From the NCBI GenBank assembly GCA_029253045.1, contig JAQXAG010000048.1:1-61518 (forward strand): a stretch of 61,518 nt of DNA, read 5' to 3'. The notes beneath the pieces were generated by a model. The model was given only the letters and a program-made list of their open reading frames with translations, was not told the origin of the DNA and did not search any database. The position numbers and the translations under genes are program-made. Every line of letters starts with the position of its first letter. Position 1 is the first letter of the stretch. The DNA is from Fidelibacterota bacterium (GTDB taxonomy: Bacteria > Fidelibacterota > Marinisomatia > Marinisomatales > Marinisomataceae). Below are positions 25,300 through 39,824 of this stretch, one piece after another.

Positions 25300-28200
25300 A
25301 TGCCATTAAAAATACCAACAGTACAAGTAGGCCTTGAAAAGTCTATACAAAAAGCTGTAAAGAATGTTAGTTCTAGAGGCGGATTAAACTTATCTCTTAA
25401 TGATAGAAATTTTACTAGACCTTTAGGGAAGATAACTGGTTCAGTAAGCGAATTCAATAAATCACTAGAAGCTTCAAATGCTAGAGTTTTAGCTTTCGGC
25501 GCATCTGTAGGGATCATAAACGGTGTACAAACTGCATTTAAAGCATTATTGCAAACTACAATACAGGTAGAAAAACAGCTTACTGAAATTAACATCGTTA
25601 TGGGATTAACTAACTCTCAGTTAGATGATTTCTCAAAAGGACTTTTTAAAGTAGCTAAGAATACAGCACAATCTTTTTCAACTGTTGCAACTGCAGCAAC
25701 AGAACTAGCAAGACAAGGTTTGACGATGGAGGAAACCTTGAAAAGAACTAATGATGCCCTTATACTTACAAGGTTGACTGGCTTAGATGCTGCTAATGCA
25801 GTAAGCGGTTTAACTGCAGCTTTAAACACATTTAATAAAGCTGGTCTAGACTCCACCAAAATTTTAAGTAAAATGGCTGCGGTTGATGTTCAATTCGCAG
25901 TTAGTACTGAAGACTTGATTGATGCCGTGTCTAGAGCTGGTGCTGTAGCTCAAGATGCTGGTGTTAGTTTCGACCAACTACTAGGTGCTGTTACCGCAGC
26001 TCAACAACAAACAGCTAGAGGCGGTAAAGTTATAGGTAATAGTTTTAAAACTATATTTACTCGTGTGCAAAGATCTAGCACCATAAGTAGATTAGAAGAA
26101 TTGGGTATAGCAGTCAGAGATATAGCAGGTAATACATTACCAGCCATAACAGTTCTTGAAAATTTATCTAAAACATATGAAACTTTAGCTGACACTACGA
26201 AAGCTGCTGTTGCAGAGCAAGTGGGTGGAGTTTTTCAAATCAACATTTTAAAAGCTGCTATAAACGATTTGTCATCAGCAAACAGTATATTAGCTAGAGC
26301 CACTCAAATATCAGCCAGTGCAACAGACGAAGCTTATAAAAAGAACGAAATTCTGAATAGGTCGCTATCCGCATTATCTTCTCAAGCGGCATCGAGCATA
26401 AAAGAGCTTGCTAATTTAGTTGGAGATATTGGGTTTTCTGACCAAATTAGAGATTATCTAACTTTTATTAGAGATCAGGTTAGCGGAATATCAGACTTCC
26501 TGGGGCAAAAAGAAGGGGAGTCAGCTGGAGCAGATTTTGCAAAAGGATTAATTGCTGGAATAGGAAACGTAATAAGTGGGCCAGGTTTATTTTTAGCTGG
26601 AGCCGTCTTAATAAAACTTTTTGCAAAAACATCTCAATTTCTTCTTGGAAGTGCTAAAGAATTAATGGGTGTTGTAAGTGCTTCTCAAAAACAAAAAAGA
26701 ATACAAGAATCAATTGTTACAGTTCTTGGTGAAAATAGCAATTTACAAAGAAGAATATTATCTCAAGAAGGCAATAGAGCAGCTCAAGAAAAAACAATAC
26801 TCACTTTGCTTCAAGCCCAAAATAGAGAGCAACAAAGAATTGCTGCCGCTGCGAAAGCAATAGGGCCTTCGGTTTTAAGAGCGGGTTTTAATACGGGATT
26901 GAGTAAAGGGAAAAGCGGAGGGCATATACCTAATTATGTGTCTGCAGAAGAAAGGATAATGGAGAAACAGGGTGCGAGATCTGGAGGTTATTCCGCTGGT
27001 TCAGTGAAATCAATGAATGTTGGAGGAAGGGGTAGGGTAGTATATAATACAGCCGAAAAAGTTAAAAAATTTCCAGGACTTAGCGAACCAGCTATAATGC
27101 CGCCCCAGCAAAGTTCTGCAGGAAAAAAATACCAAAACAGTTTTGAACAAATACATGGATTTAATCCTTATAGCAATAAGGGTATGGTTCCAAATTATGC
27201 GAATCCTAGATCTAAAGTATTCGCTAAAGAAATGGGGGGAGGTCAAGTAGGAGGTCCACCCAGACAGGTTACTTTTACATCGATGGTAGGGTCTAAAAAG
27301 TTCGTCGATGCTCAAACGATGGAAATTCCAGTATCAGGATCTGATAAAATGGGGCTACAAGTTATTTTTACTGGAGACTCTCCGCAAAGCTTGAGAGGTC
27401 AAGGATATGGAACTGAACTTTATGAGCATATGGCTGGATATGCAAAGAAGAAAGGGTATGCTGGATTATACGGCGATATGGGAACATCTATTTCTGCCAT
27501 GAGAGTTATAGATAGTATAGCTAAAAGAAAAACTTTTAAAGTTGAAAAAGCTAAAGATCTTAAATTTCATAAAGATGATTTTGAAACAGAGGGAATGTGG
27601 GGTAGTGATGATTGGACATATAAACTATCCAGTCAAGGGAAAATACCTAATTATGCACTATCTAATACTCCAGTAGGAGCTGATTTCTTACTTGGCTTAA
27701 GTGCCGCTAGTCCAGCCAACTACAAAACGAGTACAATAGCTAAGTATGAAGCGCACAAAGATCCAACAAAACTTAATGACTTATTGTCCAGCCCCCAAAG
27801 AACACTTGAGGCGTTAAAGTATTTAGATAATAAAGGCTTAAACCAAGTAAAAGACTCAATGCTGTCTACTGGATTGCTAACAGATAGAGATTGGGAGTTA
27901 GTAAAACAAGGGGTTGGTAAAAAACCCGAAGGTAATATAGCGGATATTCTTAGGAAGACACCCGCTAGAGATTTGTTAAATTACATGTCTGGAAATACAG
28001 ATAGAATAAGCGGAAATATACCAGGAACATTTCTAAGGTTAATGGATAGAGATGAAAGAGATAAAATTGCTCTTGACATGATAGGAAGAACAGGAGTCTC
28101 TGGGGTTGTTAAAAAACAAGTTGGATTAATGGGCAAAAGCAAAAACAGAATGCGAGATGCTCAAATGGAAGTTATGTCATCAGACGTGCCAAGGTTAGCA

Positions 28201-31200
28201 TACAACCCAGAAAGAGGCATAACTAAAGCTAGAAGCCAGGGCTACTTGCTGGCTCAAATGTATAGGACAGGAAACCCTAGAGCTTCTCAACCATTTTATC
28301 CAGATTCATTTATTGATAGCAAGGGCGAGCTTAAGAAATTTAGAAAATTTGGAGATTTTTCAGAAAGACAAAATAGAATAAAGAAAATAGCAGACCAAAG
28401 AAGGATTGAATCCTCTTTTAGTTCAGGGCAAGGATCTTTAATGAGAGGAGCTGCATTAAACCAAAATTCAGGAAGAAATCTGTTGCTTTCTAACTTAGCC
28501 GCAGGAGGGGTAAGAAATCAAAAAGCAGTTCAAGATTTTGAACAGTTAATCTCCAGGGAACAAAACCCTTTAACAAGTAAACAAGCAATATCAAAAATTG
28601 CACCAAGTATAACACTGAATAAAGATTTAGAAGACTATTACAAAAAACTTAGAAAAAGATCAAGAGGTAGATTTGGTTTTAGTGACGGCATGATCCCCAA
28701 TTATGCGATGCGAATAGACCCTACAAAAATATCACCTTTTGCATCAAGAGCAAGGGCGGGAAAAATTAACTCTTCAAAACACGATGGAGTTATAGGAATG
28801 TCAAAACTCTCTGAGATATTAAATGGTAGATTATTTACATCCATAAAATACCAGAAATCAGGAGGAGGGGGAACTCAAGACCTTTTTCTCTCTGGGGCTA
28901 GGTCTGGTGTTCATAAATATAAAAAAGGAGCACCGCCTCCTGCTAAGTACACAAGCTATGCAGACATGGACGCTAAAACAGGAACAACGGTTGTTCATGC
29001 AAACTCTGCGGGAGTTGGAGAGAAAGGCTACAGAAGATTAAAACTAAATAGAGTAGACAGTGTAGTCTCGCAAGGTAAGCATTTTAAAGTTGATCCTAAC
29101 ATGGCTAATGCAGGAATGGTTCCTAATTTTATGCTTGGAAAAATAAGAACAGTGGCCCAGGCAGTGGGGATGTTTAAAAAGGATACTGGTTTATTTTCTG
29201 CTCTTTCAGGTAAAAACTTTTGGAGCAGAAGAACTAATTCTATAAAATTAAGAGAAAGTAATTATGACGAAGTAAGACAATTTATTAATAGTAGGTCTTT
29301 TAGATCGCTGCCAGAAGGCGAAAGAAATAAAATATTAAAAGACTTAAAAAATCAATCTGAAAATCTAAATGTAAACGATGTAACTAGATCTTATTTTCAA
29401 TATGGAGATCCTGATTATCAAGGAAGAATTCATGCTAGCTCAGGAGCTATACCAAATTATGCAAATCTATTTTCAGGTGGAGCTTCAAAAGTATTATCAA
29501 AAAACCCTCAATATGGTGGAGCTGTAAAAGACGCAATAGCTAGAGAAGCTTCTTTTGGGCTGACTCCTAGAGTGGTACAAGCTCCATCTTTAAGAAGCTC
29601 AAGAAATCCAGGGTTAGCTGTAGTAAACCAAGAACAAGAAGGAGGCAGGTTGTCTAATGCAAGAAAGTTGCATGGAGGTTTAAACCCTAACAAGAAAAGC
29701 TCTGCAATTCCTAATTATGCAATACAACCAGTTGGTTTAAGTGAAGTAATACAATCTAGAGTAGGAGCGTTAAGAGAGGTTGATGCTCTAGGCTTAGATG
29801 CTGTATCAAAATCTGCCGAGAGAGCTTCTCAAACAATTGATGAGCTTAGCGCAAGTACTCAGAAGGGAGAAGATTTCTTAAAACAACAATCTCAACAGTA
29901 TGCAAATTCTGCAGAATTAATAAAAGAAAATAACCTAAGGGAAAAGGCAAGGCTGGGAACTCTCAAGAGAGAGAGTGTTGAGAGAAAAAAATACATGAGA
30001 GAAACCTTTAGGAAAGATGCTTTAGGTTCTCTAGCTGGAACTGATGGCCCAATGGGAGATTTAGCAAAATCCCTACAAGGAGAAGGCTTCGAAAAAAATC
30101 TAAGAACTCAAATGGGGGTCGCACAACAATCAGGAGATGTAGAGACATTAAAAGGGTTAGAAAGATTGAATGATGCTATAGATAGAAGTGCTTCATCAGC
30201 CATGGATGACCCAAAAACTCAAGCAAAATTCCTAGAAGATAGTTTGAAGAAAGCCAGTAGAGACGAAAAAAGACTGGAAAGATTTAGAGGCACAAAAGGA
30301 TACGGACAAACAGAGCTTAAAAAGTTTTTTGCTCAAGAATTTCTATCTCAAAGAGGTGTTCAAACCACAGACCAAACACAAGCCTTAAGTGTTCTAAGCT
30401 CAATGGGACGAAGAGGACAAGAAGATTTTAAAGCTTTTACTCAAGAACAAGGAGTTTTATCTTCAAATAAGGCATTAGCCAGATCAGGATTAAGGACTGG
30501 GCAATTTGGAAGTTTAGTTAAAGGTGATGGATCAAACTTTATATCTAAACTTGAAAAATTTCAAAACAAATTAGATGCTGGGGAATCAACTAGATCTTTA
30601 AGAAAAGATTTATTTAGAGAAGCAGCTAAAGTAGGGAAAAATTCTGATTCAGCTCAAACCCTTCAAGCTATGGTTGCCAATACAAGACAGCAACAAAAGG
30701 AGGATAAACAACAAAAAAGAAGAGATGCACGAGCTCGCCTTGGTCAAAGACAATTACGACAAGGGGGTGGGTTTAGAGCATCTTTTCTTTCAGGAACTGG
30801 GGGATCAAACTTAAGATCTTCAGGAATTATAGGTGGACTTGGAAATAGATTAGGAAGAACTGCTGGAGCAGCTAGGGCTGGTGCAGGTAATTTTGTGAAG
30901 AGTGGTTTTGCTGGAGGATTTGGCGGGCAAGTTGGATTAGGTTTATCCATAGTAGCCCCTATGCTTGCTGGCATGATCGCCAATCAAACTCCAAGAGAAG
31001 ATAGAGCAACATTAAAAAACGGAAGGTTTGAGGTTGGGGGAACTGGTAAAGATATGGCATCCAGCACACTCATGGGAGTGGGAATGGGAGCTATTTTCGG
31101 AGCTCCTGGAGCTATAGCTGGAGGGTTTATAGGATTTATAAACTCAATGAAGAAAGCTACCCTCACTATAGATGAGCAAATTAGAGTAAGAGAAAAAGAA

Positions 31201-34200
31201 ATAGCTTTAATAGGTCAAAACATGCAAGCCGCACAATCAATACAAAACCTTTCAACATCCAGAGCTCAAGCTTTAGCAACTGGAGATATGGATAAAGTGG
31301 CAAATGTAGATACCGCAATGAATCAAGCTTTAGCGGGAGTTAATGATATTGATACTCTTAAGAGGTTAGCTTCTGCTGGGGGAGATAATGATGCATTATC
31401 TCAAATACAAAGAGGTTTACAAGACCAAATGACTAATGCCGTCAGTGTTCAAAACTTCGGGGTAGCTCTTAAAAATTCAGACCAAGTCAAAGCTGCAAAA
31501 AATGCTGGTGTTGCAATGGGGTCAATGATTGCTCAAGCTATTAGAAATGAAGATATGGACGAAGGTACTGCATTAGAAACCTTGAGAAACATACAAACAA
31601 GTACTGCAGAAAAAGAAGGTATGGGAATGCTTGACACGAAAAGCCTTAATTCTCTAAGAAAACGAGCTGAGGGGGCTCAAGGGATGACGAGTCCAGGTAC
31701 ATTGGGAGGAGCAGGGGTTGGGCTTGCGGCAGCAGGAGGATTGGCTTTAGCGGGTGTTGCGACTGGAGGAGCAGCCTTAGTAGTTGCCGCTCTACTTGCG
31801 GGCGGCGGAGCTTTAGCTGGAAGAGGAATCGAAAGCTCTATGGCGGAAGGTGATTTGGAAGATGCGCAAAAACTTGGATTAGATGAAATAAACGAGCTTT
31901 CTAAGTTAGTTGAAGCTGGAGCTATGACCGAAGTTCAAATGCAACAATTAACGGCTGCATTCAGAGAGGGAGAAATAAGTATAGGTGATATAGCCAAAGA
32001 AGCTGAAGGAGCTGTAATAGAATTTCAAAAAATTAAAAAAGCATCAGATAGAGCTAGCGAAGCATTATTCAATATAGATCAAACTTTTAAAAGAACTATA
32101 TCTAAAATGGCGGTAAGTTTAGAGGTTGACAAAATAAGATCTGGAGCTAAATCTTCGGTAGACAGATCTAATGCTAATTTTTCCTCTCAATTCATGTCTG
32201 GTAAAGATGCCTCATCTTTTCTAGGTAGAAGGCAAAGCAAGATACTAGCAAACGATGCTTCTGCGAGAATAGGTCAATTTTCAAGAGAGACAGATATAGG
32301 ATTCTTAAGAGACGTAAAAGCAAAGAGTAAAAATTTAAACTTTGGAGGTCCTCAGATGGAATTCATAAGAAAGACCGTTGAAGAAAGTGGTGTTGCACCA
32401 ATAGAATCAATGGTAAGATCCAGAAAAATGGATGGGGTAATGAACCTTAATTTAGACACAGGAAGACTAGATGATATATTTGAAGCACTTGGTGTTCAAG
32501 GTGGAGTGGAGAAGTTTCAAGCGAATAGTAGTATCACTATGCCTGAAAATATTAATGACTTAGCAGGGTCTCTTGGAACCAATAATAAAGAAGAGCAAAA
32601 AAGAATAGTAGATGAAATAATACAAAATCTACCTGAAATCAGAAAAACAGGGGAAATGCAGACTAGTTTCACTAGGGAGCTTGCAGAGCCTGATGCAAAA
32701 ATGCTTACAGAAATCTTAGACTCAAGAAAAGAGCAGTTTCAAATAATACAAGAACAAATATTGGCTGAGAGGAAAAACTTAAGCGTTCAGATAGCTCAAA
32801 ATAATATTCAATCACACATACAAAATGATTTAGAATTACTTCAGAGGGAAATGGAAAATAGAGCTATGGCTGAAGAGACTAAACTTTTAGGAATAAAAGG
32901 AAGATCTCAAACAACCAAGTCCTTCGCTTCATTTGAAGGCGGAGAAATGTTTAGAGGAATGAATTCTGATAGTGAGGAGAATTCCAGGCAGGCAAAATTA
33001 AGAAAGCAAATTTTTGACGAGGATATGAAAGTGAGAAAGGCTGAAGCTTTAAACGCTTTGAAAAGAGAAGCTCAAAAAATACTTTCGGAGAAAAATCTTA
33101 TTAATGCATTGAACGATTTAAAAAGTTCTATAGATGAACAACTTGATGAAGCAGCAAAAGAGGGAGACATTTCTCAAGGTCAAGGAGGAGGATTATTGGT
33201 AGACAAAGGAGGGCAAGGCGGGGGAGCTGCAGGAGTTGGCAAAAGGCTTTCCGTGTTCAAGTCAGTAGAGGGTAGTTCAAAGATAAATGATCAAATACAA
33301 AAAGAAGGAACCCAAATAACAAATAAAAAGTCAGAAATAAAAACTATAAATGCAAAAAAAGAAAAACAAGTAAGCACGCAAAACAAAAAAGAAACAGAAA
33401 TAAAGACAATAACAGATTACCTGAATAGGGTTAGCTCTGCTAATAAACTGCCAGAAAATAAAGTTTTTTCAAAAAATGGGTTTAGTCTTGGTAATATACA
33501 AAGAATTAATTTAAGAGAGAGTGCTCTTGACGACATAAGAGATGACCTTAAAAGAGACCCTAAAATGAGTGCTCAGTTAGCTCAAACAACATACTCGGAA
33601 GGCGGCGATGGATTCGATGATGGAGGTGTGGTCCAAAGGACTAGAGATGCTACCGCAGGCGAAATGTCAGGCAGGCTGAAAGAATTGCTAGGCGAAAGAG
33701 AAAATGAGCTTAAGGCGGCTACCGAAAAAGTAGCAAAAAGAGATACTGACATAGCAGCACTAGAAGCTGACATACAAACAAGAGAAGAAAGAATAAAGAA
33801 ACTAGAAGAGAATTTGAGAGGTAGTGTTGTAGAATTAAGCGATGTTTTAAAAGGTCAGAACATAAAATTAGAAAAGATAAATTTAATAAACACAAAAGAG
33901 TTACAAGATAAAATTCAAGGAGCTACAAATTTAGAAGAAGTAACATCGGTTTTCGAATCAGAAATAAAAAGGCTAGGAGAAGGAAGGGTTGATGAGGTTA
34001 TTAGTGCAAGAATAAAGACATTAACCGAAGTCATGAAAAGCTTAAATTCAGGGCTGACCGAAGCAGAAAGAGGATTCAATGTAGCAGAAGCTCAAAGAGC
34101 AATGGAAGATTTTAATAGTAATTTAAATTTTTCTTCATATTCAAAATCTTCTTTTAATAGCATTAGAGGAATGGACAATGTAAATATTAGATCTATGGCT

Positions 34201-35937
34201 GGAGCAAGAGCGATGTCCAAAGTAGAAGACCAAACAAGAAGAGAGCAAGAATTTGATTTAGTACGAAACGACCCAACATCTACGAGAGCTGAAATAGCAA
34301 GGGCCGAAGCTGATATGGTGTCAAGAACGATAGGAACTAAAGATCAAAGAACTAAAATGACTGACATGAGGGGTGACTTAGCTACATATAACAGAAGTTT
34401 AAAAGGAGAAGAAGAACGTAAGTTAAATGCAATATCTACTGGAGATAAAGATTCTCAGGCTAGTGCTGAGGCGCAGATAGTAGATTTAAAGGATGCTATA
34501 TTAGAATTAGATACATCTATGGAGGATTTAGCCCTAGAGATGACTAGGACAACTCCTAGGGATAAAGGTTTTATGGGTGAATTTACAGAAAATACATCTA
34601 TGGGTTTAAAAATGGGATTTGCTGAGATAGAAGAGCAATCCGAACTAATTTATACTAGGTTGGGTAGAGATTTGCCTATGCTCTTTAGGGACGGCCTAGT
34701 TGATGCAATGCAAGCTGCAATTGACGGAAGTCAAAGCTTAGAAGATTCTTTTAGGCAAATTGGTGTCACACTTTTACAAAACATACAAAAAGCATTCTTG
34801 ACTAGCGCATCAAATAGAATAACAGGAGCTGTAGGAAATCTTTTTGACATAGATGGCTACAACTCAGGGGGATATGTAAATGGTGGCAGCGGAACTAAAG
34901 ACGATATTCCTGCTATGTTGATGGGTGGAGAATACGTAATAAAGAAAAGCGCTGTTGATAGATATGGAGTTAACTTTCTTGAAAATCTAAATAGTGGAAC
35001 TTTGCCTGGATTTAGAGATGGAGGAGGAGTTAATTTAGCTATAGGTGGGCCAAAAGTAGCAGAAAGAGAAAAATTTATTGATGAAAATAAATATGGAAAT
35101 GTTACTAGATACAAGACTACAAAAGCTGGAATAGGTATAAACAGTTCATTATCTTCATATGCCATAAATAACGATAGGTCTATTCAGAAATACTTTAGAG
35201 ATCAAGAGGGGCAATTCAATCAAGATATATCAACAAGAAATCAAGAAAAACAAAGAAAGAAACAAGAAGAGTACCAGAAAAAAGTAGAAAAAAATCAAAT
35301 GTGGAATGCGCTTATAGGCATTGCTGGCTCAGCTTTATTAAGTAAAGCTATTGATTTTGGTATGGATAAATATAATCAAACTGATTTTGCAAAAAATAGA
35401 GCGGCTAAAAAAGCTCAGCGCTCGATGGATGATAAAGGTTATGTTGACGTAAGAGGAAGAAGCATAAATAAAATTTATAAAAAACCTTCTGAAGCAGCAA
35501 AAGTTAGAAGTGAGATTAGAAGTGTTCATAGGAATAATGGGTGGGAAGCTTCTTCAGCCCTTATGAGGGATTATGGAATTGGGGGTTCTGTTGATAAGGA
35601 TGGCATAGTTATAAGAAACAAAGGGGGCGGAGTTCCATCTAGACTTACAGGCGGAGAATATGTAATGAGTCCTAGTGCTGTAAAAACTTACGGATCAACC
35701 TTAATGGAGGGCTTAAATAGCGGTTCTGTTTCAGCTCCAAGTACTTCAGGAGGAGGAGGGTCAGGGCAAGTAAGCAATATTAGTCATGGTGATGTTAATA
35801 TTAGTATTAATGTTGATGGTTCTGGGGGAACATCTGGAGGGGCTGATATTAATTCTTCAGAATTTGCAACTAAAGTTAAAAGTGCTGTAATGCAGGTGAT
35901 ATCAAAAGAAAAAAGAGTGGGAGGCACCTTAAGATAA
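25300..35937 (+). CDS. tail tape measure protein, 3,545 aa
   Basis: The N-terminal ~330 aa match the TP901-family TMP core pattern (TEINIVMGLTNSQLDDFSKGLFKVAKNTAQSFSTVATAATELARQGL...DLIDAVSRAGAVAQDAGVSFDQLLGAVTAAQQQT). There are long coiled-coil stretches and Gly/Ala-rich hydrophobic segments (nt ~26590-26650, 30880-31130, 31690-31830, 35310-35350). The canonical C-terminal motif is present twice. The gene sits between the major tail gene and the tail-tip genes. Confidence 0.9.
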   Translation: MPLKIPTVQVGLEKSIQKAVKNVSSRGGLNLSLNDRNFTRPLGKITGSVSEFNKSLEASNARVLAFGASVGIINGVQTAFKALLQTTIQVEKQLTEINIVMGLTNSQLDDFSKGLFKVAKNTAQSFSTVATAATELARQGLTMEETLKRTNDALILTRLTGLDAANAVSGLTAALNTFNKAGLDSTKILSKMAAVDVQFAVSTEDLIDAVSRAGAVAQDAGVSFDQLLGAVTAAQQQTARGGKVIGNSFKTIFTRVQRSSTISRLEELGIAVRDIAGNTLPAITVLENLSKTYETLADTTKAAVAEQVGGVFQINILKAAINDLSSANSILARATQISASATDEAYKKNEILNRSLSALSSQAASSIKELANLVGDIGFSDQIRDYLTFIRDQVSGISDFLGQKEGESAGADFAKGLIAGIGNVISGPGLFLAGAVLIKLFAKTSQFLLGSAKELMGVVSASQKQKRIQESIVTVLGENSNLQRRILSQEGNRAAQEKTILTLLQAQNREQQRIAAAAKAIGPSVLRAGFNTGLSKGKSGGHIPNYVSAEERIMEKQGARSGGYSAGSVKSMNVGGRGRVVYNTAEKVKKFPGLSEPAIMPPQQSSAGKKYQNSFEQIHGFNPYSNKGMVPNYANPRSKVFAKEMGGGQVGGPPRQVTFTSMVGSKKFVDAQTMEIPVSGSDKMGLQVIFTGDSPQSLRGQGYGTELYEHMAGYAKKKGYAGLYGDMGTSISAMRVIDSIAKRKTFKVEKAKDLKFHKDDFETEGMWGSDDWTYKLSSQGKIPNYALSNTPVGADFLLGLSAASPANYKTSTIAKYEAHKDPTKLNDLLSSPQRTLEALKYLDNKGLNQVKDSMLSTGLLTDRDWELVKQGVGKKPEGNIADILRKTPARDLLNYMSGNTDRISGNIPGTFLRLMDRDERDKIALDMIGRTGVSGVVKKQVGLMGKSKNRMRDAQMEVMSSDVPRLAYNPERGITKARSQGYLLAQMYRTGNPRASQPFYPDSFIDSKGELKKFRKFGDFSERQNRIKKIADQRRIESSFSSGQGSLMRGAALNQNSGRNLLLSNLAAGGVRNQKAVQDFEQLISREQNPLTSKQAISKIAPSITLNKDLEDYYKKLRKRSRGRFGFSDGMIPNYAMRIDPTKISPFASRARAGKINSSKHDGVIGMSKLSEILNGRLFTSIKYQKSGGGGTQDLFLSGARSGVHKYKKGAPPPAKYTSYADMDAKTGTTVVHANSAGVGEKGYRRLKLNRVDSVVSQGKHFKVDPNMANAGMVPNFMLGKIRTVAQAVGMFKKDTGLFSALSGKNFWSRRTNSIKLRESNYDEVRQFINSRSFRSLPEGERNKILKDLKNQSENLNVNDVTRSYFQYGDPDYQGRIHASSGAIPNYANLFSGGASKVLSKNPQYGGAVKDAIAREASFGLTPRVVQAPSLRSSRNPGLAVVNQEQEGGRLSNARKLHGGLNPNKKSSAIPNYAIQPVGLSEVIQSRVGALREVDALGLDAVSKSAERASQTIDELSASTQKGEDFLKQQSQQYANSAELIKENNLREKARLGTLKRESVERKKYMRETFRKDALGSLAGTDGPMGDLAKSLQGEGFEKNLRTQMGVAQQSGDVETLKGLERLNDAIDRSASSAMDDPKTQAKFLEDSLKKASRDEKRLERFRGTKGYGQTELKKFFAQEFLSQRGVQTTDQTQALSVLSSMGRRGQEDFKAFTQEQGVLSSNKALARSGLRTGQFGSLVKGDGSNFISKLEKFQNKLDAGESTRSLRKDLFREAAKVGKNSDSAQTLQAMVANTRQQQKEDKQQKRRDARARLGQRQLRQGGGFRASFLSGTGGSNLRSSGIIGGLGNRLGRTAGAARAGAGNFVKSGFAGGFGGQVGLGLSIVAPMLAGMIANQTPREDRATLKNGRFEVGGTGKDMASSTLMGVGMGAIFGAPGAIAGGFIGFINSMKKATLTIDEQIRVREKEIALIGQNMQAAQSIQNLSTSRAQALATGDMDKVANVDTAMNQALAGVNDIDTLKRLASAGGDNDALSQIQRGLQDQMTNAVSVQNFGVALKNSDQVKAAKNAGVAMGSMIAQAIRNEDMDEGTALETLRNIQTSTAEKEGMGMLDTKSLNSLRKRAEGAQGMTSPGTLGGAGVGLAAAGGLALAGVATGGAALVVAALLAGGGALAGRGIESSMAEGDLEDAQKLGLDEINELSKLVEAGAMTEVQMQQLTAAFREGEISIGDIAKEAEGAVIEFQKIKKASDRASEALFNIDQTFKRTISKMAVSLEVDKIRSGAKSSVDRSNANFSSQFMSGKDASSFLGRRQSKILANDASARIGQFSRETDIGFLRDVKAKSKNLNFGGPQMEFIRKTVEESGVAPIESMVRSRKMDGVMNLNLDTGRLDDIFEALGVQGGVEKFQANSSITMPENINDLAGSLGTNNKEEQKRIVDEIIQNLPEIRKTGEMQTSFTRELAEPDAKMLTEILDSRKEQFQIIQEQILAERKNLSVQIAQNNIQSHIQNDLELLQREMENRAMAEETKLLGIKGRSQTTKSFASFEGGEMFRGMNSDSEENSRQAKLRKQIFDEDMKVRKAEALNALKREAQKILSEKNLINALNDLKSSIDEQLDEAAKEGDISQGQGGGLLVDKGGQGGGAAGVGKRLSVFKSVEGSSKINDQIQKEGTQITNKKSEIKTINAKKEKQVSTQNKKETEIKTITDYLNRVSSANKLPENKVFSKNGFSLGNIQRINLRESALDDIRDDLKRDPKMSAQLAQTTYSEGGDGFDDGGVVQRTRDATAGEMSGRLKELLGERENELKAATEKVAKRDTDIAALEADIQTREERIKKLEENLRGSVVELSDVLKGQNIKLEKINLINTKELQDKIQGATNLEEVTSVFESEIKRLGEGRVDEVISARIKTLTEVMKSLNSGLTEAERGFNVAEAQRAMEDFNSNLNFSSYSKSSFNSIRGMDNVNIRSMAGARAMSKVEDQTRREQEFDLVRNDPTSTRAEIARAEADMVSRTIGTKDQRTKMTDMRGDLATYNRSLKGEEERKLNAISTGDKDSQASAEAQIVDLKDAILELDTSMEDLALEMTRTTPRDKGFMGEFTENTSMGLKMGFAEIEEQSELIYTRLGRDLPMLFRDGLVDAMQAAIDGSQSLEDSFRQIGVTLLQNIQKAFLTSASNRITGAVGNLFDIDGYNSGGYVNGGSGTKDDIPAMLMGGEYVIKKSAVDRYGVNFLENLNSGTLPGFRDGGGVNLAIGGPKVAEREKFIDENKYGNVTRYKTTKAGIGINSSLSSYAINNDRSIQKYFRDQEGQFNQDISTRNQEKQRKKQEEYQKKVEKNQMWNALIGIAGSALLSKAIDFGMDKYNQTDFAKNRAAKKAQRSMDDKGYVDVRGRSINKIYKKPSEAAKVRSEIRSVHRNNGWEASSALMRDYGIGGSVDKDGIVIRNKGGGVPSRLTGGEYVMSPSAVKTYGSTLMEGLNSGSVSAPSTSGGGGSGQVSNISHGDVNISINVDGSGGTSGGADINSSEFATKVKSAVMQVISKEKRVGGTLR
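26920..29721 (+). repeat. seven-fold G-x-(I/V)-P-N-(Y/F)-A motif array within the TMP (protein-level repeat)
   Basis: GHIPNYV 26920-26940; GMVPNYA 27181-27201; GKIPNYA 27637-27657; GMIPNYA 28687-28707; GMVPNFM 29113-29133; GAIPNYA 29443-29463; SAIPNYA 29701-29721. All are in the TMP frame, at aa 541, 628, 780, 1130, 1272, 1382 and 1468. Confidence 0.85.
27208..27560 (+). other. GNAT-like N-acetyltransferase module embedded in the TMP (candidate)
   Basis: MGLQVIFTGDSPQSLRGQGYGTELYEHMAGYAKKKGYAGLYGDMGTSISAMRVIDSIAKRKTFKV fits GNAT motif A (beta4, then R/Q-x-x-G-x-G/A, then helix; RGQGYG at nt 27394-27411). It is followed by beta5-alpha4-beta6-like segments. The module is bounded by IPNYA motifs 2 and 3 (~145 aa). 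Confidence 0.4.
34867..35724 (+). other. two copies of the canonical C-terminal TMP motif (IPxxLxxGEYV...AV..YG...LE.LNSG)
   Basis: GGYVNGGSGTKDDIPAMLMGGEYVIKKSAVDRYGVNFLENLNSG (34867-34998) and NKGGGVPSRLTGGEYVMSPSAVKTYGSTLMEGLNSG (35617-35724). I recognise this as a motif common near the C-termini of siphovirus TMPs. Confidence 0.7.
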
Positions 35938-36772: not shown

Positions 36773-37530
36773 AATATATAAGACATCAAGAATGCGAAGT
36801 AGAAATAAATGGAGAAAAAATTTTTGCAAAAAATGCTTCTCTATCCTCATCTAGCTCTACTAAATCAAATAGAACATATGGGGGAGGTCTAAGACCTTAC
36901 AACTCTACAGATCCCGTAAGCTCATCAGTTCAGTTTTCATATTATATAACAGGTAAAGAAGATTCAATAGATTTATTAACAGGATCTCATCCATGCTCTG
37001 GAAGATTTTGCGGTATAGAATTTTCGGGAGCATACCTCACTAATTACGGGGTTGAGATCGAACCTTACAGGCCAGTTCAGTTTTCAGCATCTTTTGATAT
37101 TTATAGCGGATTTAATCAAGAAACTAAAACAGGTTCTTTTGGGGGAGCGTCAAGTGGACTAGCCAATGGAGCATATACAGAACTATTAAATTTTAATAAA
37201 AATAATATTGGTTTAGATTTTCCGCAAAGAATATCTTACTCTATAGATTGCGAAAGAACACCTAATTATGTTATAGGTTTAGAGCATCCCGTGGACGTAA
37301 GGCATGGAAAAATATCTAAAAATCTTTCTATACAAGGCGAGAATATCGGCAGTGTAATGAATTATTCAGGAAAAGGTTTTGCTAAAATTGAGATCTCCCC
37401 AAGAAATATAGACTATGCAGCAAGAGGTAGAACCCTGAATTGCGAAGGAGTTATAAATAGTCAAAACTTAAGCGTAAGCTCTAGAGGACTATTAAATGGA
37501 TCTATAGATGTCATGGAGAGTGTGAGATGA
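36769..37530 (+). CDS. tube-fold tail protein paralogue B
   Basis: 253 aa, ATGA overlap with the previous gene. EVEINGEKIFAKNASLSSSSS...SSVQFSYYI and PQRISYSIDCERTPNYVIGLEHPVDV...KNLSIQGE parallel the motifs of paralogue A. Confidence 0.5.
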   Translation: MKYIRHQECEVEINGEKIFAKNASLSSSSSTKSNRTYGGGLRPYNSTDPVSSSVQFSYYITGKEDSIDLLTGSHPCSGRFCGIEFSGAYLTNYGVEIEPYRPVQFSASFDIYSGFNQETKTGSFGGASSGLANGAYTELLNFNKNNIGLDFPQRISYSIDCERTPNYVIGLEHPVDVRHGKISKNLSIQGENIGSVMNYSGKGFAKIEISPRNIDYAARGRTLNCEGVINSQNLSVSSRGLLNGSIDVMESVR

Positions 37531-38495
37531 GCGATGTAGTTAATAAAAAACACTTCTGGAATTTAGATAAAGATTTTTATGATACAACAGAAAACTCTGG
37601 AGGGGGTTATTATAATTCATATTCGGATTTTGTTAAAAATTCTAAGATAGAAACTAACTTAAAAAACTTTAAATACAAAAACCCTTTTAGTTTTATTCCT
37701 TCGTATGGAGCTTCAGTATCTATTAATTTTTTAAATAAAGTAAGTAATTACGGAAATAATTATTTAATGGTAGAAGAAAATGGGCTAAATAGAATTATAA
37801 TTACTTTTGAACTTGGTTTCGAGAACAGGGGCGACGATGAATCGGATAATATAATCAGTTATATAAATTCAAAAGGTGGTGCTAAATATTTTCCTTTGCA
37901 GTTTATAGAGAGAGATGGGCTGTCTCTTGAAAATGCCTACAAATCATTATTTTCAATAAACCCCTATATGATTCAAGAGTTTAAATGTAGTTCTATTAGT
38001 TCTAGTTCAAATTATGTAGATAGTAATTCTATTAAACTGGATCTAATAAATGATTTAGCTACTAAATTTAACTCTAGAAATATTATTTACTCAGAATCCT
38101 TGCCGCAAAAAGATAAAGATGTTATAAATGATTATTGGGGCAAAAGCTCTTTAGACATTCAACCTTCATATCCTTTATCCAGAGATGAAGATTTTAATGT
38201 AAAAGAATTAAAATTAGGTAATTCGAAATCTCATTCTGAAGAAGATGGAATAAATGCAAAATTAATGTCTTTATCTTTAAAGTTTGAAGCTATAAACGAC
38301 GAAACATTATTAAAATTATTATCGTTTTTTATATCAAAACATGGAACTGAAACCTTTGAATTTGAATTACAAAGGCCAGAAAGAAAAACTGTTAACTTTA
38401 TGTGCTCTCAAATAAATCATACTTTTTTGTATATGGGATCGCATGATTTGACGGTAAGGGTTAGCGAAGTGCCAATTAAAAGAAAACTTTTATAA
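37527..38495 (+). CDS. minor tail protein (lambda gpM position)
   Basis: 322 aa, ATGA overlap, directly upstream of the L-like gene. The C-terminal FEFELQRPERKTVNFMCSQINHTFLYMGSHDLTVRVSEV is vaguely gpM/DUF2460-like. The call is mainly positional. Confidence 0.35.
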   Translation: MSDVVNKKHFWNLDKDFYDTTENSGGGYYNSYSDFVKNSKIETNLKNFKYKNPFSFIPSYGASVSINFLNKVSNYGNNYLMVEENGLNRIIITFELGFENRGDDESDNIISYINSKGGAKYFPLQFIERDGLSLENAYKSLFSINPYMIQEFKCSSISSSSNYVDSNSIKLDLINDLATKFNSRNIIYSESLPQKDKDVINDYWGKSSLDIQPSYPLSRDEDFNVKELKLGNSKSHSEEDGINAKLMSLSLKFEAINDETLLKLLSFFISKHGTETFEFELQRPERKTVNFMCSQINHTFLYMGSHDLTVRVSEVPIKRKLL

Positions 38496-38535: not shown

Positions 38536-39441
38536 ATGGCTTTCTTAAAAAAAGAATCTGTAAATGCTGAACTTTTTAATCACACAAAAAGTGCTCATGT
38601 AGAATTTTTAGAAATATCTGAAATACCAAACTCTGGAGATGTCATTAGACTTCACGGCGGAGTTAACTCAATAAATGAATCAATTTTTTTTGGGGGTAAA
38701 GAGTATTTTTATATTCCATATGAAGGTGTAGACTTTGGAAGTAGGTCTGACGGAAGAGTATCAAGACCCACTATAAAAATAATTAATTATAGCGGATTTC
38801 TTTCGAAGTTCATGTTAGGAAAAGATGATTTAATAAGATCAAGAGTAACTAGAATAAGAACTTTTTTTAGATTTTTAGATAAAGAAAACTTTTTAAATTA
38901 TGATGCTGATAAAGGTTTTTGGGATAAAATGGGAATATCCCCAGATCCAGATGCAAGACTTAGGCCAGATGTATGGTACATAAATCAAAAGATAGAAGAG
39001 AATAAATTTTACATTGAATATGAATTATCCAATGCTCTTGATTTAGAGGGCGCCGTTTTACCCAGAAGGCAAATATTGAATAATTATTGTACATGGAAAT
39101 ACAGAGGAAAAGGTTGCAAGTATAGCGGAGGAGTAGCAGCTGATTCAAACGATGTTAAATTTGATAAAACTTCATTGAACCCAAGAGGTGAGTGGGCTGT
39201 TGGTGAAAATTATATTTTGGGAGATGTTGTTTATGTATGGACTAGGGAGGGGCAGGATCAAAGATCAATAATGTATGTATGCACAGAGCCTCATACATCA
39301 TCAAAAGGACTAAGACCGTCTATAAATACGTCGAATTGGGCTATGGATGCTTGCTCGAAGACCCTAAACGGCTGCAGATTAAGATTCGGTGAAGATAATG
39401 AGCTTCCTTTTGGCGGGTTTCCTTCAAGCAGGCTTTATTAA
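38536..39441 (+). CDS. minor tail protein, lambda gpL-like (Cys-cluster type)
   Basis: 301 aa. NNYCTWKYRGKGCKYSGG (nt ~39081-39130) and the C-terminal CSKTLNGCRLRFGEDNELPFGGFPSSRLY (39351-39438) match the gpL/BR0599-type cysteine cluster and the LPFGGFP ending. Confidence 0.8.
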   Translation: MAFLKKESVNAELFNHTKSAHVEFLEISEIPNSGDVIRLHGGVNSINESIFFGGKEYFYIPYEGVDFGSRSDGRVSRPTIKIINYSGFLSKFMLGKDDLIRSRVTRIRTFFRFLDKENFLNYDADKGFWDKMGISPDPDARLRPDVWYINQKIEENKFYIEYELSNALDLEGAVLPRRQILNNYCTWKYRGKGCKYSGGVAADSNDVKFDKTSLNPRGEWAVGENYILGDVVYVWTREGQDQRSIMYVCTEPHTSSKGLRPSINTSNWAMDACSKTLNGCRLRFGEDNELPFGGFPSSRLY

Positions 39442-39824
39442 TGAAAAGTGAAATTTTAAATAAAATTAAAAAGATTTCAGAATCCCAAAAAGAAGAAGAA
39501 ATTTGCGGGTTTATTGTAGAAGATAAAGGTAAAGAACATTTGGTTGAATGTGAAAATGTGTCTTTTCATAAAAAAGGTAATTTTGAGATATCACAAAAAA
39601 AATTTGTAGAAGTTTTTGAGCAAAATAAAATTTTAATTATTTACCATTCCCATCCAGAAAATACAGAACAGTTTTCAAAAGAAGATATAAATCTTAGTGA
39701 ATCTTTGATTCTGCCAATTATAGTTTATAGTAATCAAACTGAAAAATTTAACATACATATTCCCAAGGGGGTGAAAAGAAATAAATCATTAAACAGGGTG
39801 GAAAAAAGTGTAGTTACTTATTAG
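39441..39824 (+). CDS. JAB/MPN (JAMM) metallopeptidase-domain tail protein, lambda gpK N-terminal-like, without NlpC/P60 domain
   Basis: 127 aa. EEICGFIVE (upstream Glu) plus HSHPENTEQFSKED equals H-x-H-x7-S-x2-D (nt 39645-39686), a complete JAMM motif. It sits between the L-like and I-like genes. Confidence 0.8.
   Translation: MKSEILNKIKKISESQKEEEICGFIVEDKGKEHLVECENVSFHKKGNFEISQKKFVEVFEQNKILIIYHSHPENTEQFSKEDINLSESLILPIIVYSNQTEKFNIHIPKGVKRNKSLNRVEKSVVTY

What the first reader, a model, noticed from the sequence alone, without database searches (positions are those of the whole stretch)
27208..27560. GNAT-like acetyltransferase module embedded inside the tape measure protein
The module between IPNYA copies 2 and 3 contains LQVIFTGDSPQSLRGQGYGTELYEHMAGYAKKKGYAGLYGDMGTSISAMRVIDSIAKRKTFKV. 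This fits the acetyl-CoA-binding motif A of GNAT enzymes: beta4, then (R/Q)xxGx(G/A), then helix alpha3, followed by beta5/alpha4/beta6-like segments. TMPs are known to carry embedded peptidoglycan hydrolase or Rpf-like motifs and to be ejected ahead of the DNA. I am not aware of an acetyltransferase embedded in one. If real, it would be an enzyme delivered into the envelope or cytoplasm at the moment of infection. Candidate roles are counter-defence, modification of the envelope, or modification of a host protein or aminoacyl-tRNA as in GNAT toxins.
Basis: inference. Interest (0 to 1): 0.7.

Follow-up and report, generated by a model that had tools for sequence, protein, structure and literature searches.

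The report
Swappable acetyltransferase-fold cassette in phage tape measure
A giant tail tape-measure protein of an uncultured marine phage carries a small domain with the fold of a GNAT acetyltransferase. It is one of several interchangeable modules separated by a conserved short linker, so this phage may deliver an enzyme into its host together with its tail-length ruler.

Summary
The quoted peptide lies at aa 686-748 of a 3545-aa ORF (25300..35937, +). That ORF has a PhageMin_Tail domain and sits at the lambda gpH position, upstream of gpM-, L-, K- and J-like genes.

The GNAT reading is supported at fold level:
- RGQGYG (motif A) is invariant in 15 homologues.
- All 13 tested homologues give weak PF00583 hits. 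The window copy is sub-threshold (17.4 vs 20.7 bits).
- hhalign links the module family to GNAT repeats of phage polyvalent proteins (98.3%, E 1.3e-14).
- An AF2 model (pLDDT 72, pTM 0.74) retrieves almost only GNATs from PDB and BFVD.

The domain is a minimal GNAT; the alpha1-alpha2 arm is predicted to be missing.

Beyond the finding, TMP aa 543-1470 is an array of six modules separated by [SN]xGx[IV]PN[YF] linkers. Relatives carry the same module families in different orders. The GNAT cassette shows dN/dS 0.10 and 0.36 in two pairs. It has been swapped between TMPs as a unit, with junctions at the linkers. More distant TMPs lack it.

Catalysis, acetyl-CoA binding, cleavage at linkers and delivery to the cytoplasm are all untested. 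GNATs in injected polyvalent phage proteins are known, so I rate this a new variant of a known kind.

The parts
25300..35937 (+). Tape measure protein ORF, 3545 aa, the host of the module
   Evidence: Single ORF. PF10145 PhageMin_Tail at aa 118-310, E 1.9e-25. PHROG tape-measure families, up to E 2e-55. 25-31% identity to annotated TMPs of Bacillus phages. The gene lies directly upstream of gpM/L/K/J-like genes.
25651..26229 (+). PhageMin_Tail (PF10145) domain of the TMP, aa 118-310
26545..26646 (+). First hydrophobic glycine-rich segment (aa 416-449), upstream of the cassette array. The next ones are at aa 1874-1896, 1926-1947 and 2133-2178.
   Evidence: Kyte-Doolittle scan
26926..29718 (+). 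Cassette array, aa 543-1473. Six modules (B, D, C, A, I, E) are delimited by seven [SN]xGx[IV]PN[YF] linkers.
26926..27186 (+). Module B (aa 543-629, 87 aa). It is the first module in every TMP of the D-containing group that has its N-terminus.
27187..27642 (+). Module D (aa 630-781), the GNAT-fold cassette. It includes its 5' linker motif VPNY (27187-27198).
27214..27633 (+). Predicted folded GNAT core (aa 639-778): beta1, beta2, beta3, beta4, alpha3, beta5, alpha4, beta6, beta7, with no alpha1-alpha2
   Evidence: AF2 DSSP elements E10-16, E27-34, E37-48, E55-62, H74-88, E94-96, H102-114, E117-121, E145-149. Foldseek matches to GNATs.
27394..27411 (+). Motif A pyrophosphate-binding loop RGQGYG (aa 699-704). 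R699, G702, Y703 and G704 are invariant.
   Evidence: Aligned to PF00583 positions 70-93.
27466..27528 (+). beta5-alpha4 region LYGDMGTSISAMRVIDSIAKR (aa 723-743). L723, G725, D726, T729, M734, S739 and K742 are invariant. This is the motif-B equivalent.
27643..27654 (+). Linker motif IPNY (copy 3), which closes the GNAT cassette
   Evidence: Recombination junctions map here in relatives.
27643..28692 (+). Module C (aa 782-1131), function unknown. It is the most divergent module (23-48% identity between relatives).
28693..29118 (+). Module A (aa 1132-1273), conserved, with no recognisable fold
29119..29448 (+). Module I (aa 1274-1383), found in only some relatives
29449..29706 (+). Module E (aa 1384-1469). 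It is the last module in every TMP of the D-containing group whose array end was captured.
37527..38495 (+). gpM-like minor tail protein (context for the gpH position)
   Evidence: PF05939, E 1.4e-15; phrog_14
38536..39441 (+). gpL-like minor tail protein
   Evidence: PF05100, E 1e-44; phrog_18
39441..39824 (+). gpK-like JAB/MPN-domain protein of the tail tip. It is the only peptidase-like domain seen near the TMP.
   Evidence: PF14464, E 2.8e-10
40551..49193 (+). gpJ-like central tail fibre/tip protein, 2880 aa
   Evidence: PF13550, E 2.1e-17

Best explanation
Module D (TMP aa ~639-778) is a minimal GNAT-fold domain. It is related to the GNAT repeats found in phage and plasmid 'polyvalent' proteins. 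It is built into the tape measure protein of an uncultured marine lambda-like siphophage as one accessory cassette in a shuffled array.

Shown here:
- The fold assignment.
- Strict conservation of the CoA-pyrophosphate loop RxxGxG.
- Purifying selection on the module.
- Its location inside the TMP.
- The modular array with conserved [IV]PN[YF] linkers.
- Exchange of the GNAT cassette as a unit between TMPs.
- Its absence from more distant TMPs of the same kind.

Inferred mechanism: the TMP leaves the tail ahead of the DNA at infection. The cassette region lies between the hydrophobic segments at aa 416-449 and aa 1874-1896. It refolds in the host, possibly after cleavage at the linkers. The GNAT domain then uses host acyl-CoA, which is available only in the cytoplasm, to acylate a host target. 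That target is most likely a protein amine, as proposed for the related polyvalent-protein GNATs. The effect would favour early infection through counter-defence or takeover of transcription or translation.

The confidence of 0.55 is for the whole statement, including the inferred delivery and catalysis. For the fold assignment and the cassette architecture alone I would give about 0.9.
For: - Sequence. RGQGYG plus 10 further invariant positions in 15 homologues. 13/13 homologues hit PF00583, 9/13 hit PF14542 and 6/13 hit PF13508.
- Exhaustive phmmer. Besides 13 true homologues, the search returns multi-GNAT polyvalent proteins carrying Zeta-toxin, ART-PolyVal, NUDIX, mCpol and ParB_N domains.
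- Profile-profile comparison: 98.3%, E 1.3e-14. The bridging set is validated against Pfam.
- Structure. AF2 pLDDT 71.7, pTM 0.74. Foldseek top hits in the PDB (best 5u08, E 1.3e-4, TM about 0.5) and in BFVD are GNATs. Module A, run the same way as a control, gives no match.
- Selection. Module D is 54-74% identical between relatives, against 23-48% for module C and 34-58% for the C-terminal 1900 aa. dN/dS is 0.10 and 0.36 in the two unsaturated pairs.
- Mobility. Nucleotide identity jumps to 90-100% exactly across D and drops at both linkers in L004/L007 and in L011/L012, where the neighbouring modules differ.
- Accessory status. There is no D module in the captured 880-2656 aa of L021-L027.
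- TMP identity.
- Precedent. GNATs in injected polyvalent proteins are assigned to the RimI-like clade and predicted to act on proteins (PMC5512222). The phiKMV Rac GNAT acetylates the RNAP alpha subunit (PMC7824862).
Against: - The window copy alone does not reach the Pfam gathering score (17.4 vs 20.7 bits).
- PDB sequence-profile hits to GNATs are all non-significant (E 0.27-2).
- No named NCBIfam family matches.
- The alpha1-alpha2 arm, which normally walls the acceptor site, is predicted to be absent.
- No conserved Glu/Tyr catalytic pair can be assigned. The alpha4 position that is often Tyr is Val here and Trp/His in the polyvalent relatives.
- Some structural matches are to the GNAT-like C-terminal domain of M. 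tuberculosis ICL2. From my own knowledge, that domain binds acetyl-CoA without catalysing transfer.
- From general knowledge of siphophage tails, three or more folded 16-kDa domains would not fit side by side in a ~4-nm tail-tube lumen. The domain must therefore be unfolded or staggered in the virion.
- There is no evidence that any TMP segment of this phage reaches the cytoplasm or is cleaved.
- The host is unknown.
Confidence: 0.55

Rival explanations
1. The module is a non-catalytic GNAT-fold domain. It would be a pseudoenzyme or a CoA/acyl-CoA-binding or protein-binding module. It could serve as a sensor, a decoy, or a folding or anchoring element of the ejected TMP, without transferring an acyl group.
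For: The alpha1-alpha2 arm is missing. No assignable general base or acid is conserved across the wider family. Structural matches include the acetyl-CoA-binding regulatory domain of ICL2. In the related polyvalent proteins the domain occurs 2-5 times in tandem, which is unusual for an enzyme. Neighbouring cassettes have no enzyme signature.
Against: The pyrophosphate-binding RxxGxG loop and the motif-B Ala are strictly kept, so cofactor binding at least is probably retained. D726 at the end of beta5 is invariant in the TMP family. Minimal GNATs lacking the N-terminal arm (PF14542 type, hit by 9/13 members) are reported to be active; that is from my own knowledge of At1g77540.
Confidence: 0.25
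2. The domain is an active acyltransferase, but it works in the producing cell during tail assembly. It would acylate the TMP itself or another virion protein, for example to neutralise the lysines of the basic cassette region. It would not act on the next host.
For: Acetyl-CoA is available where the TMP is synthesised. The cassette region is lysine/arginine-rich (K+R 15.8%). A folded domain is hard to accommodate in the tail tube.
Against: The cassette is dispensable for building this kind of tail, because more distant TMPs with the same linkers lack it. Its position in the array is free. That pattern suits an accessory payload better than an assembly factor. Its relatives sit in polyvalent proteins interpreted as injected effectors (PMC5512222).
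Confidence: 0.1
3. The resemblance is due to chance, or to an assembly or ORF-calling artefact. On this view the RxxGxG match is fortuitous, or the module really belongs to a separate gene fused by error.
For: The direct Pfam hit is short (24 residues) and sub-threshold. One relative (L001, a polished long-read assembly) has the TMP broken into many ORFs.
Against: The same module lies inside uninterrupted 3356-4140-aa ORFs on more than 10 independent contigs from different samples. Profile-profile and fold evidence agree. The module A control gives no fold match.
Confidence: 0.03

Closest known systems
GNAT domains of phage and conjugative-element polyvalent proteins (Iyer, Burroughs, Anand, de Souza, Aravind 2017, PMC5512222). 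Examples found here: P0015, P0018, P0020-P0022, and the 1479-aa 'NUDIX hydrolase' of Myxococcus phage Mx1.
   Same: They are detectably homologous (hhalign 98.3%, E 1.3e-14). They share the signature [RW]G[KT]G.G..LY...AK..G...(S/G)(D/G)...(S/T)..A. Both sit inside very large multi-module proteins encoded among virion genes and thought to enter the host with the DNA.
   Different: The carrier here is the tape measure protein, not a MuF/portal-associated head protein or a T4SS substrate. The text search of that paper found no occurrence of 'tape measure'. No ART, NUDIX, Zeta-toxin, mCpol or MPTase partner domain is present. There is one copy per protein instead of 2-5. The modules are separated by a conserved PN[YF] linker that is absent from those proteins.
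Enzymatic motifs embedded in tape measure proteins: Rpf-like and peptidase M23 motifs of mycobacteriophage TMPs (e.g. TM4), and the muralytic C-terminus of T5 pb2 (from my own knowledge of Piuri and Hatfull 2006 and Boulanger et al. 2008)
   Same: An accessory catalytic-type domain is carried inside the TMP. It is dispensable for tail building and is delivered at the cell envelope during infection.
   Different: Those domains hydrolyse peptidoglycan and need no cofactor, so they can act in the periplasm or cell wall. A GNAT needs acyl-CoA and so implies cytoplasmic action. No shuffled multi-cassette array with conserved linkers has been described for those TMPs, to my knowledge.
Minimal GNATs of the PF14542 (Acetyltransf_CG / COG2388) type, e.g. 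Arabidopsis At1g77540 (own knowledge)
   Same: A short GNAT core lacking the canonical N-terminal alpha1-alpha2 arm. 9 of 13 module homologues give weak PF14542 hits.
   Different: All those hits are far below the PF14542 cut-off (best E 0.014; 14 bits for the window copy against a cut-off of 30). Those proteins are free-standing cellular proteins.
phiKMV Rac, a free phage GNAT that acetylates the host RNA polymerase alpha subunit (as summarised in PMC7824862)
   Same: It is a phage GNAT used early in infection against a host protein. It is the kind of role proposed here.
   Different: Rac is a separately expressed early gene product, not a virion component. No sequence relationship was tested or seen here.
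C-terminal GNAT-like regulatory domain of M. tuberculosis isocitrate lyase 2 (PDB 6edz, 6ee1, 9obo)
   Same: It is among the best structural matches (E 4e-4 to 2e-3, TMq 0.47-0.53). It is a GNAT fold embedded in a larger protein.
   Different: It binds acetyl-CoA as an allosteric ligand without transferring it (own knowledge). Sequence identity is only 7-9%.

Membership tests
GNAT superfamily (fold level) | Motif A, the (Q/R)-x-x-G-x-(G/A) pyrophosphate-binding loop at the beta4-alpha3 junction | tested here: met
   RGQGYG at aa 699-704. R, G, Y and G are invariant in 15 homologues. The motif aligns to PF00583 positions 70-93.
GNAT superfamily (fold level) | Mixed beta-sheet core in the order beta2-beta3-beta4-alpha3-beta5-alpha4-beta6-beta7, structurally similar to solved GNATs | tested here: met
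   AF2 model with pLDDT 71.7 and pTM 0.74 has that element order. Foldseek top-50 PDB hits are nearly all GNAT-fold proteins, best E 1.3e-4, TM about 0.5. BFVD top hits are mostly annotated acetyltransferases. This is a prediction, not an experimental structure.
GNAT superfamily (fold level) | N-terminal beta1-alpha1-alpha2 arm forming the acceptor-site wall | tested here: not met
   No helix is predicted before alpha3. Only about 10 residues lie between the first and second strands. This makes the domain a minimal or truncated GNAT variant.
GNAT superfamily (fold level) | beta-bulge in beta4 and the V-shaped beta4/beta5 splay that holds the pantetheine | not testable with these tools
   Model coordinates cannot be inspected. 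An experimental structure, or a co-folded model with acetyl-CoA, is needed.
GNAT superfamily (fold level) | Acyl-CoA binding and acyl transfer to an amine | not testable with these tools
   This is a biochemical property. Conservation of the cofactor loop is the only indirect support.
Pfam PF00583 Acetyltransf_1 (family level) | Score at or above the curated gathering cut-off (20.7 bits) | tested here: not met
   17.4 bits for the excised module and 12.8 bits in the whole TMP. All 13 homologues hit the family, but weakly; the best E is 2e-4. The module is therefore filed at superfamily level, not as a PF00583 member.
Polyvalent-protein GNAT family (Iyer et al. 2017) | Sequence homology to GNAT domains that reside in polyvalent proteins | tested here: met
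   phmmer hits to P0015, P0018 and P0020-22, E 7e-10 to 9e-4. hhalign gives 98.3%, E 1.3e-14 over 61 columns. 9/14 bridging segments pass PF00583 at E<=1e-3.
Polyvalent-protein GNAT family (Iyer et al. 2017) | Co-occurrence in one polypeptide with other conflict domains (ART, NUDIX, Zeta toxin, MPTase, MuF and others) | tested here: not met
   Pfam finds only PhageMin_Tail and the weak GNAT hit in the TMP. The other cassettes have no Pfam domain.
Polyvalent-protein GNAT family (Iyer et al. 2017) | Membership of the RimI-like clade, implying a protein substrate | not tested
   No phylogeny was made. NCBIfam gives no RimI or other named hit, only a weak STAT hit in 4/15 members.
Phage tape measure protein (the carrier) | TMP-type domain content | tested here: met
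   PF10145, E 1.9e-25. PHROG TMP families, E down to 2e-55. tblastn hits to annotated TMPs. Hydrophobic glycine-rich segments. Two C-terminal GGEYV...LNSG motifs.
Phage tape measure protein (the carrier) | Gene position between the tail-tube genes and the distal tail genes | tested here: met
   The gene is followed by gpM- (PF05939), gpL- (PF05100), gpK-like JAB (PF14464) and gpJ-like (PF13550) genes. The upstream 580-aa ORF is unassigned.
Phage tape measure protein (the carrier) | Sets tail length and is ejected before the DNA | not testable with these tools
   This needs virions of an uncultured phage.
GNAT toxins of toxin-antitoxin systems (TacT/AtaT/ItaT) | Sequence membership and an adjacent antitoxin gene | tested here: not met
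   No NCBIfam or Pfam hit to these families. The module is internal to a structural gene, with no antitoxin-like partner.

The most novel reading that the evidence does not exclude
The tape measure protein of this marine phage group is a modular effector-delivery scaffold, a 'polyvalent tape measure'. On this reading, the conserved [SN]xGx[IV]PN[YF] linkers are both the recombination joints through which cassettes are exchanged and processing sites at which the ejected TMP is cut. Cutting would be by a protease, or by Asn-mediated self-cleavage as in nodavirus and tetravirus capsid proteins. It would release several independent effectors into the host cytoplasm, one of them an acyl-CoA-dependent acyltransferase. 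The other cassettes (A, C, F, G, H, J ...) would then be new effector families.
Probability: 0.2. Interest if true: 0.85.

Novelty: new variant of a known kind. Interest (0 to 1): 0.62.

Why it matters
Two ideas are already established separately: tape measure proteins can carry cell-wall hydrolases, and some phages inject multi-enzyme 'polyvalent' proteins. This locus joins the two. A cofactor-dependent, cytoplasm-type enzyme fold sits inside the tail ruler, within an array of cassettes that are demonstrably swapped between phages at a conserved linker.

If the domain is active, part of a siphophage TMP must reach the cytoplasm in a refoldable state. Where TMPs go after ejection is an open question, and this would make it testable. 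It would also add the TMP to the list of effector-delivery vehicles.

The cassette array is also a natural example of domain shuffling with defined junctions. Its unassigned modules (A, C, F, G, H, J) are candidates for new anti-host functions in abundant marine phages.

Tried and rejected
- tblastn of the module against 50,697 GenBank phages gave no match. No cultured relative carries it.
- The first word-indexed protein search found only one homologue. The exhaustive search was needed.
- phmmer and profile searches against PDB sequences gave only non-significant hits. Five of the ten profile hits were GNATs at E 0.27-2. I treat these as weak corroboration only.
- P0013, P0014, P0016 and P0019 from the exhaustive search are repeat proteins whose score is a sum of many very weak stretches. 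I rejected them as spurious.
- A scan of 185,579 GTDB genomes found no prophage copy, so there is no host clue.
- Pfam scans of the other cassettes (A, C, F, G, H, I, J, L, M, B) and of distant TMPs found nothing except a sub-threshold PGDYG hit in module L of L008.
- For module A, the PDB profile search gave zero hits. The AF2 model was poor (pLDDT 61) and Foldseek gave nothing below E 0.37.
- Literature searches for the linker peptide (IPNYA etc.) returned only irrelevant text matches.
- Searches for tape measure plus GNAT, acetyltransferase or polyvalent found no paper describing such a fusion.
- I considered the linker as a general prohead-protease site. This is unlikely, because the motif is absent from all other proteins of the window.
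- NCBIfam gave no named GNAT subfamily.
- Most pairwise dS values are saturated, so dN/dS is informative only for the two recently exchanged pairs.
Full report
**1. Observation**

That peptide begins at residue 686 of a 3545-aa ORF, 25300..35937.

The ORF carries seven [IV]PN[YF] motifs, at aa 543, 630, 782, 1132, 1274, 1384 and 1470. Shuffling the protein gives 0.02 per shuffle, with a maximum of 1 in 5000 shuffles. The remaining ~16,500 aa encoded in the window hold a single stray match. The module lies between copies 2 and 3, as stated.

**2. The carrier is a tape measure protein**

- Residues 118-310 match PF10145 PhageMin_Tail, E 1.9e-25.
- The N-terminal 629 aa match many PHROG tape-measure families, best E 2.3e-55.
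- tblastn finds annotated TMPs of Bacillus, Lactococcus and Staphylococcus phages at 25-31% identity.
- Downstream lie gpM-like (PF05939), gpL-like (PF05100), gpK-like JAB (PF14464) and gpJ-like (PF13550) genes. The ORF therefore sits at the lambda gpH position of a siphovirus tail module.
- It has glycine-rich hydrophobic segments at aa 416-449, 1874-1896, 1926-1947 and 2133-2178.
- It has two C-terminal GGEYV...LNSG motifs.

Most other proteins of the window have no Pfam or PHROG match. Homologues come from TARA Oceans and IMG/VR contigs of up to 180 kb. None was found in 185,579 GTDB genomes. This is an uncultured marine phage lineage with about 35% G+C.

**3. Is the module a GNAT?**

Directly, Pfam gives only a 24-residue sub-threshold hit to PF00583. 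It scores 17.4 bits against a cut-off of 20.7, plus a weaker hit to PF14542. PDB sequence searches are non-significant.

An exhaustive phmmer search of 1.84 billion representatives found 22 proteins at E<=1e-3:
- 13 are true homologues (P0001-P0012, P0017). Most are parts of 3200-3800-aa proteins with the same linkers.
- 4 are repeat proteins that I reject.
- 5 (P0015, P0018, P0020-22) are multi-domain proteins with two to five Pfam-significant GNAT domains. They also carry Zeta-toxin, ART-PolyVal, NUDIX, mCpol or ParB_N domains. These are 'polyvalent proteins' in the sense of PMC5512222.

Further support:
- All 13 members of the module alignment hit PF00583 (best E 2e-4), 9 hit PF14542 and 6 hit PF13508.
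- A 15-sequence alignment of the module family (A2) has invariant R699, G702, Y703 and G704, which form the RxxGxG loop. Also invariant are L707, Y708, G719, L723, G725, D726, T729, M734, S739 and K742.
- hhalign of A2 against 14 GNAT segments of the polyvalent proteins (A3) gives 98.3% probability, E 1.3e-14, over the end of beta4 through beta6. Nine of those 14 segments hit PF00583 at E<=1e-3 on their own; the best scores 28.9 bits.
- AlphaFold2 with the 13-sequence alignment gives pLDDT 71.7 and pTM 0.74. The element order is four strands, helix (aa 703-717), strand (723-725), helix (731-743), strand, strand. This matches beta1-4, alpha3, beta5, alpha4, beta6 and beta7 of a GNAT.
- Foldseek against the PDB returns AAC(3)-I enzymes, Naa50, IAA acetyltransferase, Hpa2, GCN5 and the ICL2 C-terminal domain throughout the top 50. 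The best hit has E 1.3e-4 and TM about 0.5.
- BFVD returns phage and giant-virus acetyltransferases, and a RadC-JAB polyvalent protein.
- As a control, module A was treated the same way and gave no match below E 0.37.

I conclude that the module has a GNAT fold (about 0.9). It is not a member of any curated family at threshold. It lacks the canonical alpha1-alpha2 arm.

**4. What surrounds it: a shuffled cassette array**

I segmented 12 related TMPs at the linkers and clustered the segments. This gave module families A-M. Six more proteins were classified. The module orders are:

| TMP | Module order |
|---|---|
| window | B-D-C-A-I-E |
| L004 | B-F-G-C-A-D-E |
| L007 | B-C-A-D-E |
| L009 | B-A-D-C-I-E |
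| L011 | B-G-H-C-A-D-E |
| L015 | B-G-A-C-D-M-E |
| P0004 | B-A-C-D-E |
| P0005 | B-G-D-H-A-C-E |

- B is always first and E always last where the ends are present.
- D, the GNAT module, occurs once and at variable positions.
- The linker consensus from 78 junctions is [SN]-x-G-x-[IV]-P-N-[YF]-[ASG]. At DNA level it is a 22-26-nt imperfect repeat.
- D is 54-74% identical between relatives. That is as conserved as B and E, and much more than C (23-48%) or the C-terminal 1900 aa (34-58%).
- In L004/L007 and L011/L012, D has dS 0.31 and 0.14 with dN/dS 0.10 and 0.36. The flanking modules in the same pairs have dS 1.2-1.9.
- Sliding nucleotide identity rises to about 90-100% across D and falls to 35-76% within about one 45-nt window of the two linkers. 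In L011/L012 the neighbouring modules are different families.

The GNAT cassette has therefore been exchanged as a unit, with junctions at the linkers.

A search seeded with module B found more distant TMPs (L021-L027, 38-42% identity). They have the same kind of linkers, but no D module in their first 880-2656 aa and no other Pfam domain. The cassette is accessory.

**5. Mechanism**

Shown: the fold, the conserved cofactor loop, purifying selection, cassette mobility, dispensability and residence in the TMP.

Inferred:
- The TMP is expelled ahead of the DNA (general knowledge of siphophages).
- The cassette region between the hydrophobic segments refolds in the host.
- The domain uses cytoplasmic acyl-CoA to modify a host target, probably a protein. 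This is by analogy with the related polyvalent-protein GNATs (PMC5512222) and with phiKMV Rac (PMC7824862).
- The linkers may also be cleavage sites. Lambda gpH is processed during assembly (general knowledge), and a JAB-domain gpK-like protein is encoded nearby. Nothing here tests this.

Difficulties:
- No catalytic residues can be assigned.
- The acceptor-site arm is missing.
- Several folded domains would not fit side by side in a tail tube.
- A non-catalytic GNAT fold (ICL2-like) remains a serious rival.

**6. Comparison with what is known, and novelty**

GNAT domains in injected polyvalent proteins are known, and this module is homologous to one such family. Enzymatic motifs in TMPs are also known (peptidoglycan hydrolases). 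In the held literature I found no report of a GNAT, or of a polyvalent-type cassette array with conserved linkers, inside a tape measure protein. Absence from that library is not proof of absence.

I rate this a new variant of a known kind, with interest 0.62. The more ambitious reading is that the TMP is a cleavable multi-effector delivery scaffold. I give that a probability of about 0.2.

Noticed in passing
window 26926-29718 (TMP aa 543-1473); L002-L017, L021-L027: The TMP contains an array of modules separated by a conserved [SN]xGx[IV]PN[YF][ASG] linker. Relatives hold the same module families in different orders and numbers (5 to at least 10). B is always first and E always last. The function of the linker (recombination joint, cleavage site or docking motif) is unknown.
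   Followed up: yes
L004 vs L007 and L011 vs L012, module D +/- 450 nt: Nucleotide identity is 90-100% across the GNAT cassette only, with sharp drops at both linkers. Flanking modules have dS 1.2-1.9. This points to recent lateral exchange of a single cassette between tape measure genes.
   Followed up: yes
window 28693-29118 (module A, TMP aa 1132-1273): Module A was found in every sufficiently complete related TMP examined. It has 30 invariant positions in the 7-sequence alignment, for example IG..L, KKGA..P and S.G.G. It has no Pfam, PDB-sequence or fold match, and the AF2 model is poor (pLDDT 61). It is an unassigned conserved domain.
   Followed up: partly
window 27643-28692 (module C): This 350-430-aa module is present in all relatives of the D-containing group that were examined beyond the first few modules. 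It is very divergent (23-48% identity, dN/dS about 0.3-0.56) and has no family match.
   Followed up: partly
window 39441-39824: This 127-aa JAB/MPN-domain protein (PF14464, E 2.8e-10) lies at the lambda gpK position. It is the only peptidase-like domain near the TMP and a candidate for TMP processing.
   Followed up: no
window 34924-35090 and 35650-35810 (TMP aa ~3190-3245 and ~3430-3485): There are two copies of a C-terminal motif, (D/G)xxP(A/S)xLxGGEYV(I/M)..SAV..YG...(L/M)E.LNSG, about 240 aa apart. It looks like a duplicated TMP C-terminal element.
   Followed up: no
window 3329-11734, 40551-49193, 49373-53554: The window holds further giant ORFs of 2801, 2880 and 1393 aa. The 2801-aa and 1393-aa proteins have no Pfam match at all. 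The 2880-aa protein has only a gpJ-like PF13550 domain at aa 443-597.
   Followed up: partly
window 766-3315 and 57960-61247: An 849-aa protein has DUF285 (BspA-type repeat) stretches, E 5.7e-14. A 1095-aa protein has a BppL_N lower-baseplate N-terminal motif (E 4.8e-24), with weak fibre and sialidase-N signals. Both are probably host-recognition proteins.
   Followed up: no
window 23447-25189 to 25300: No tail-assembly-chaperone pair (lambda G/GT type) lies between the 580-aa upstream ORF and the TMP; the gap is only 110 nt. The 580-aa ORF itself has no family match, so the tail tube protein is not identified.
   Followed up: no
L028 (Myxococcus phage Mx1, OR576727.2 24404-28843); Tunturiibacter phage Tunturi_5, PP885688.1 ~229267-229767: Cultured phages carry relatives of the bridging GNAT family inside large proteins annotated as 'NUDIX hydrolase'. 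In Mx1 this protein is 1479 aa and lies close to the major capsid gene. These are probably polyvalent proteins whose GNAT parts are not annotated.
   Followed up: partly
L001 (ENA ERZ28548087 contig, 84,991 bp): In this polished long-read assembly the homologous TMP is split into about 20 short ORFs. This is most likely due to residual frameshift errors rather than biology. P0001 ends in out-of-frame sequence.
   Followed up: no
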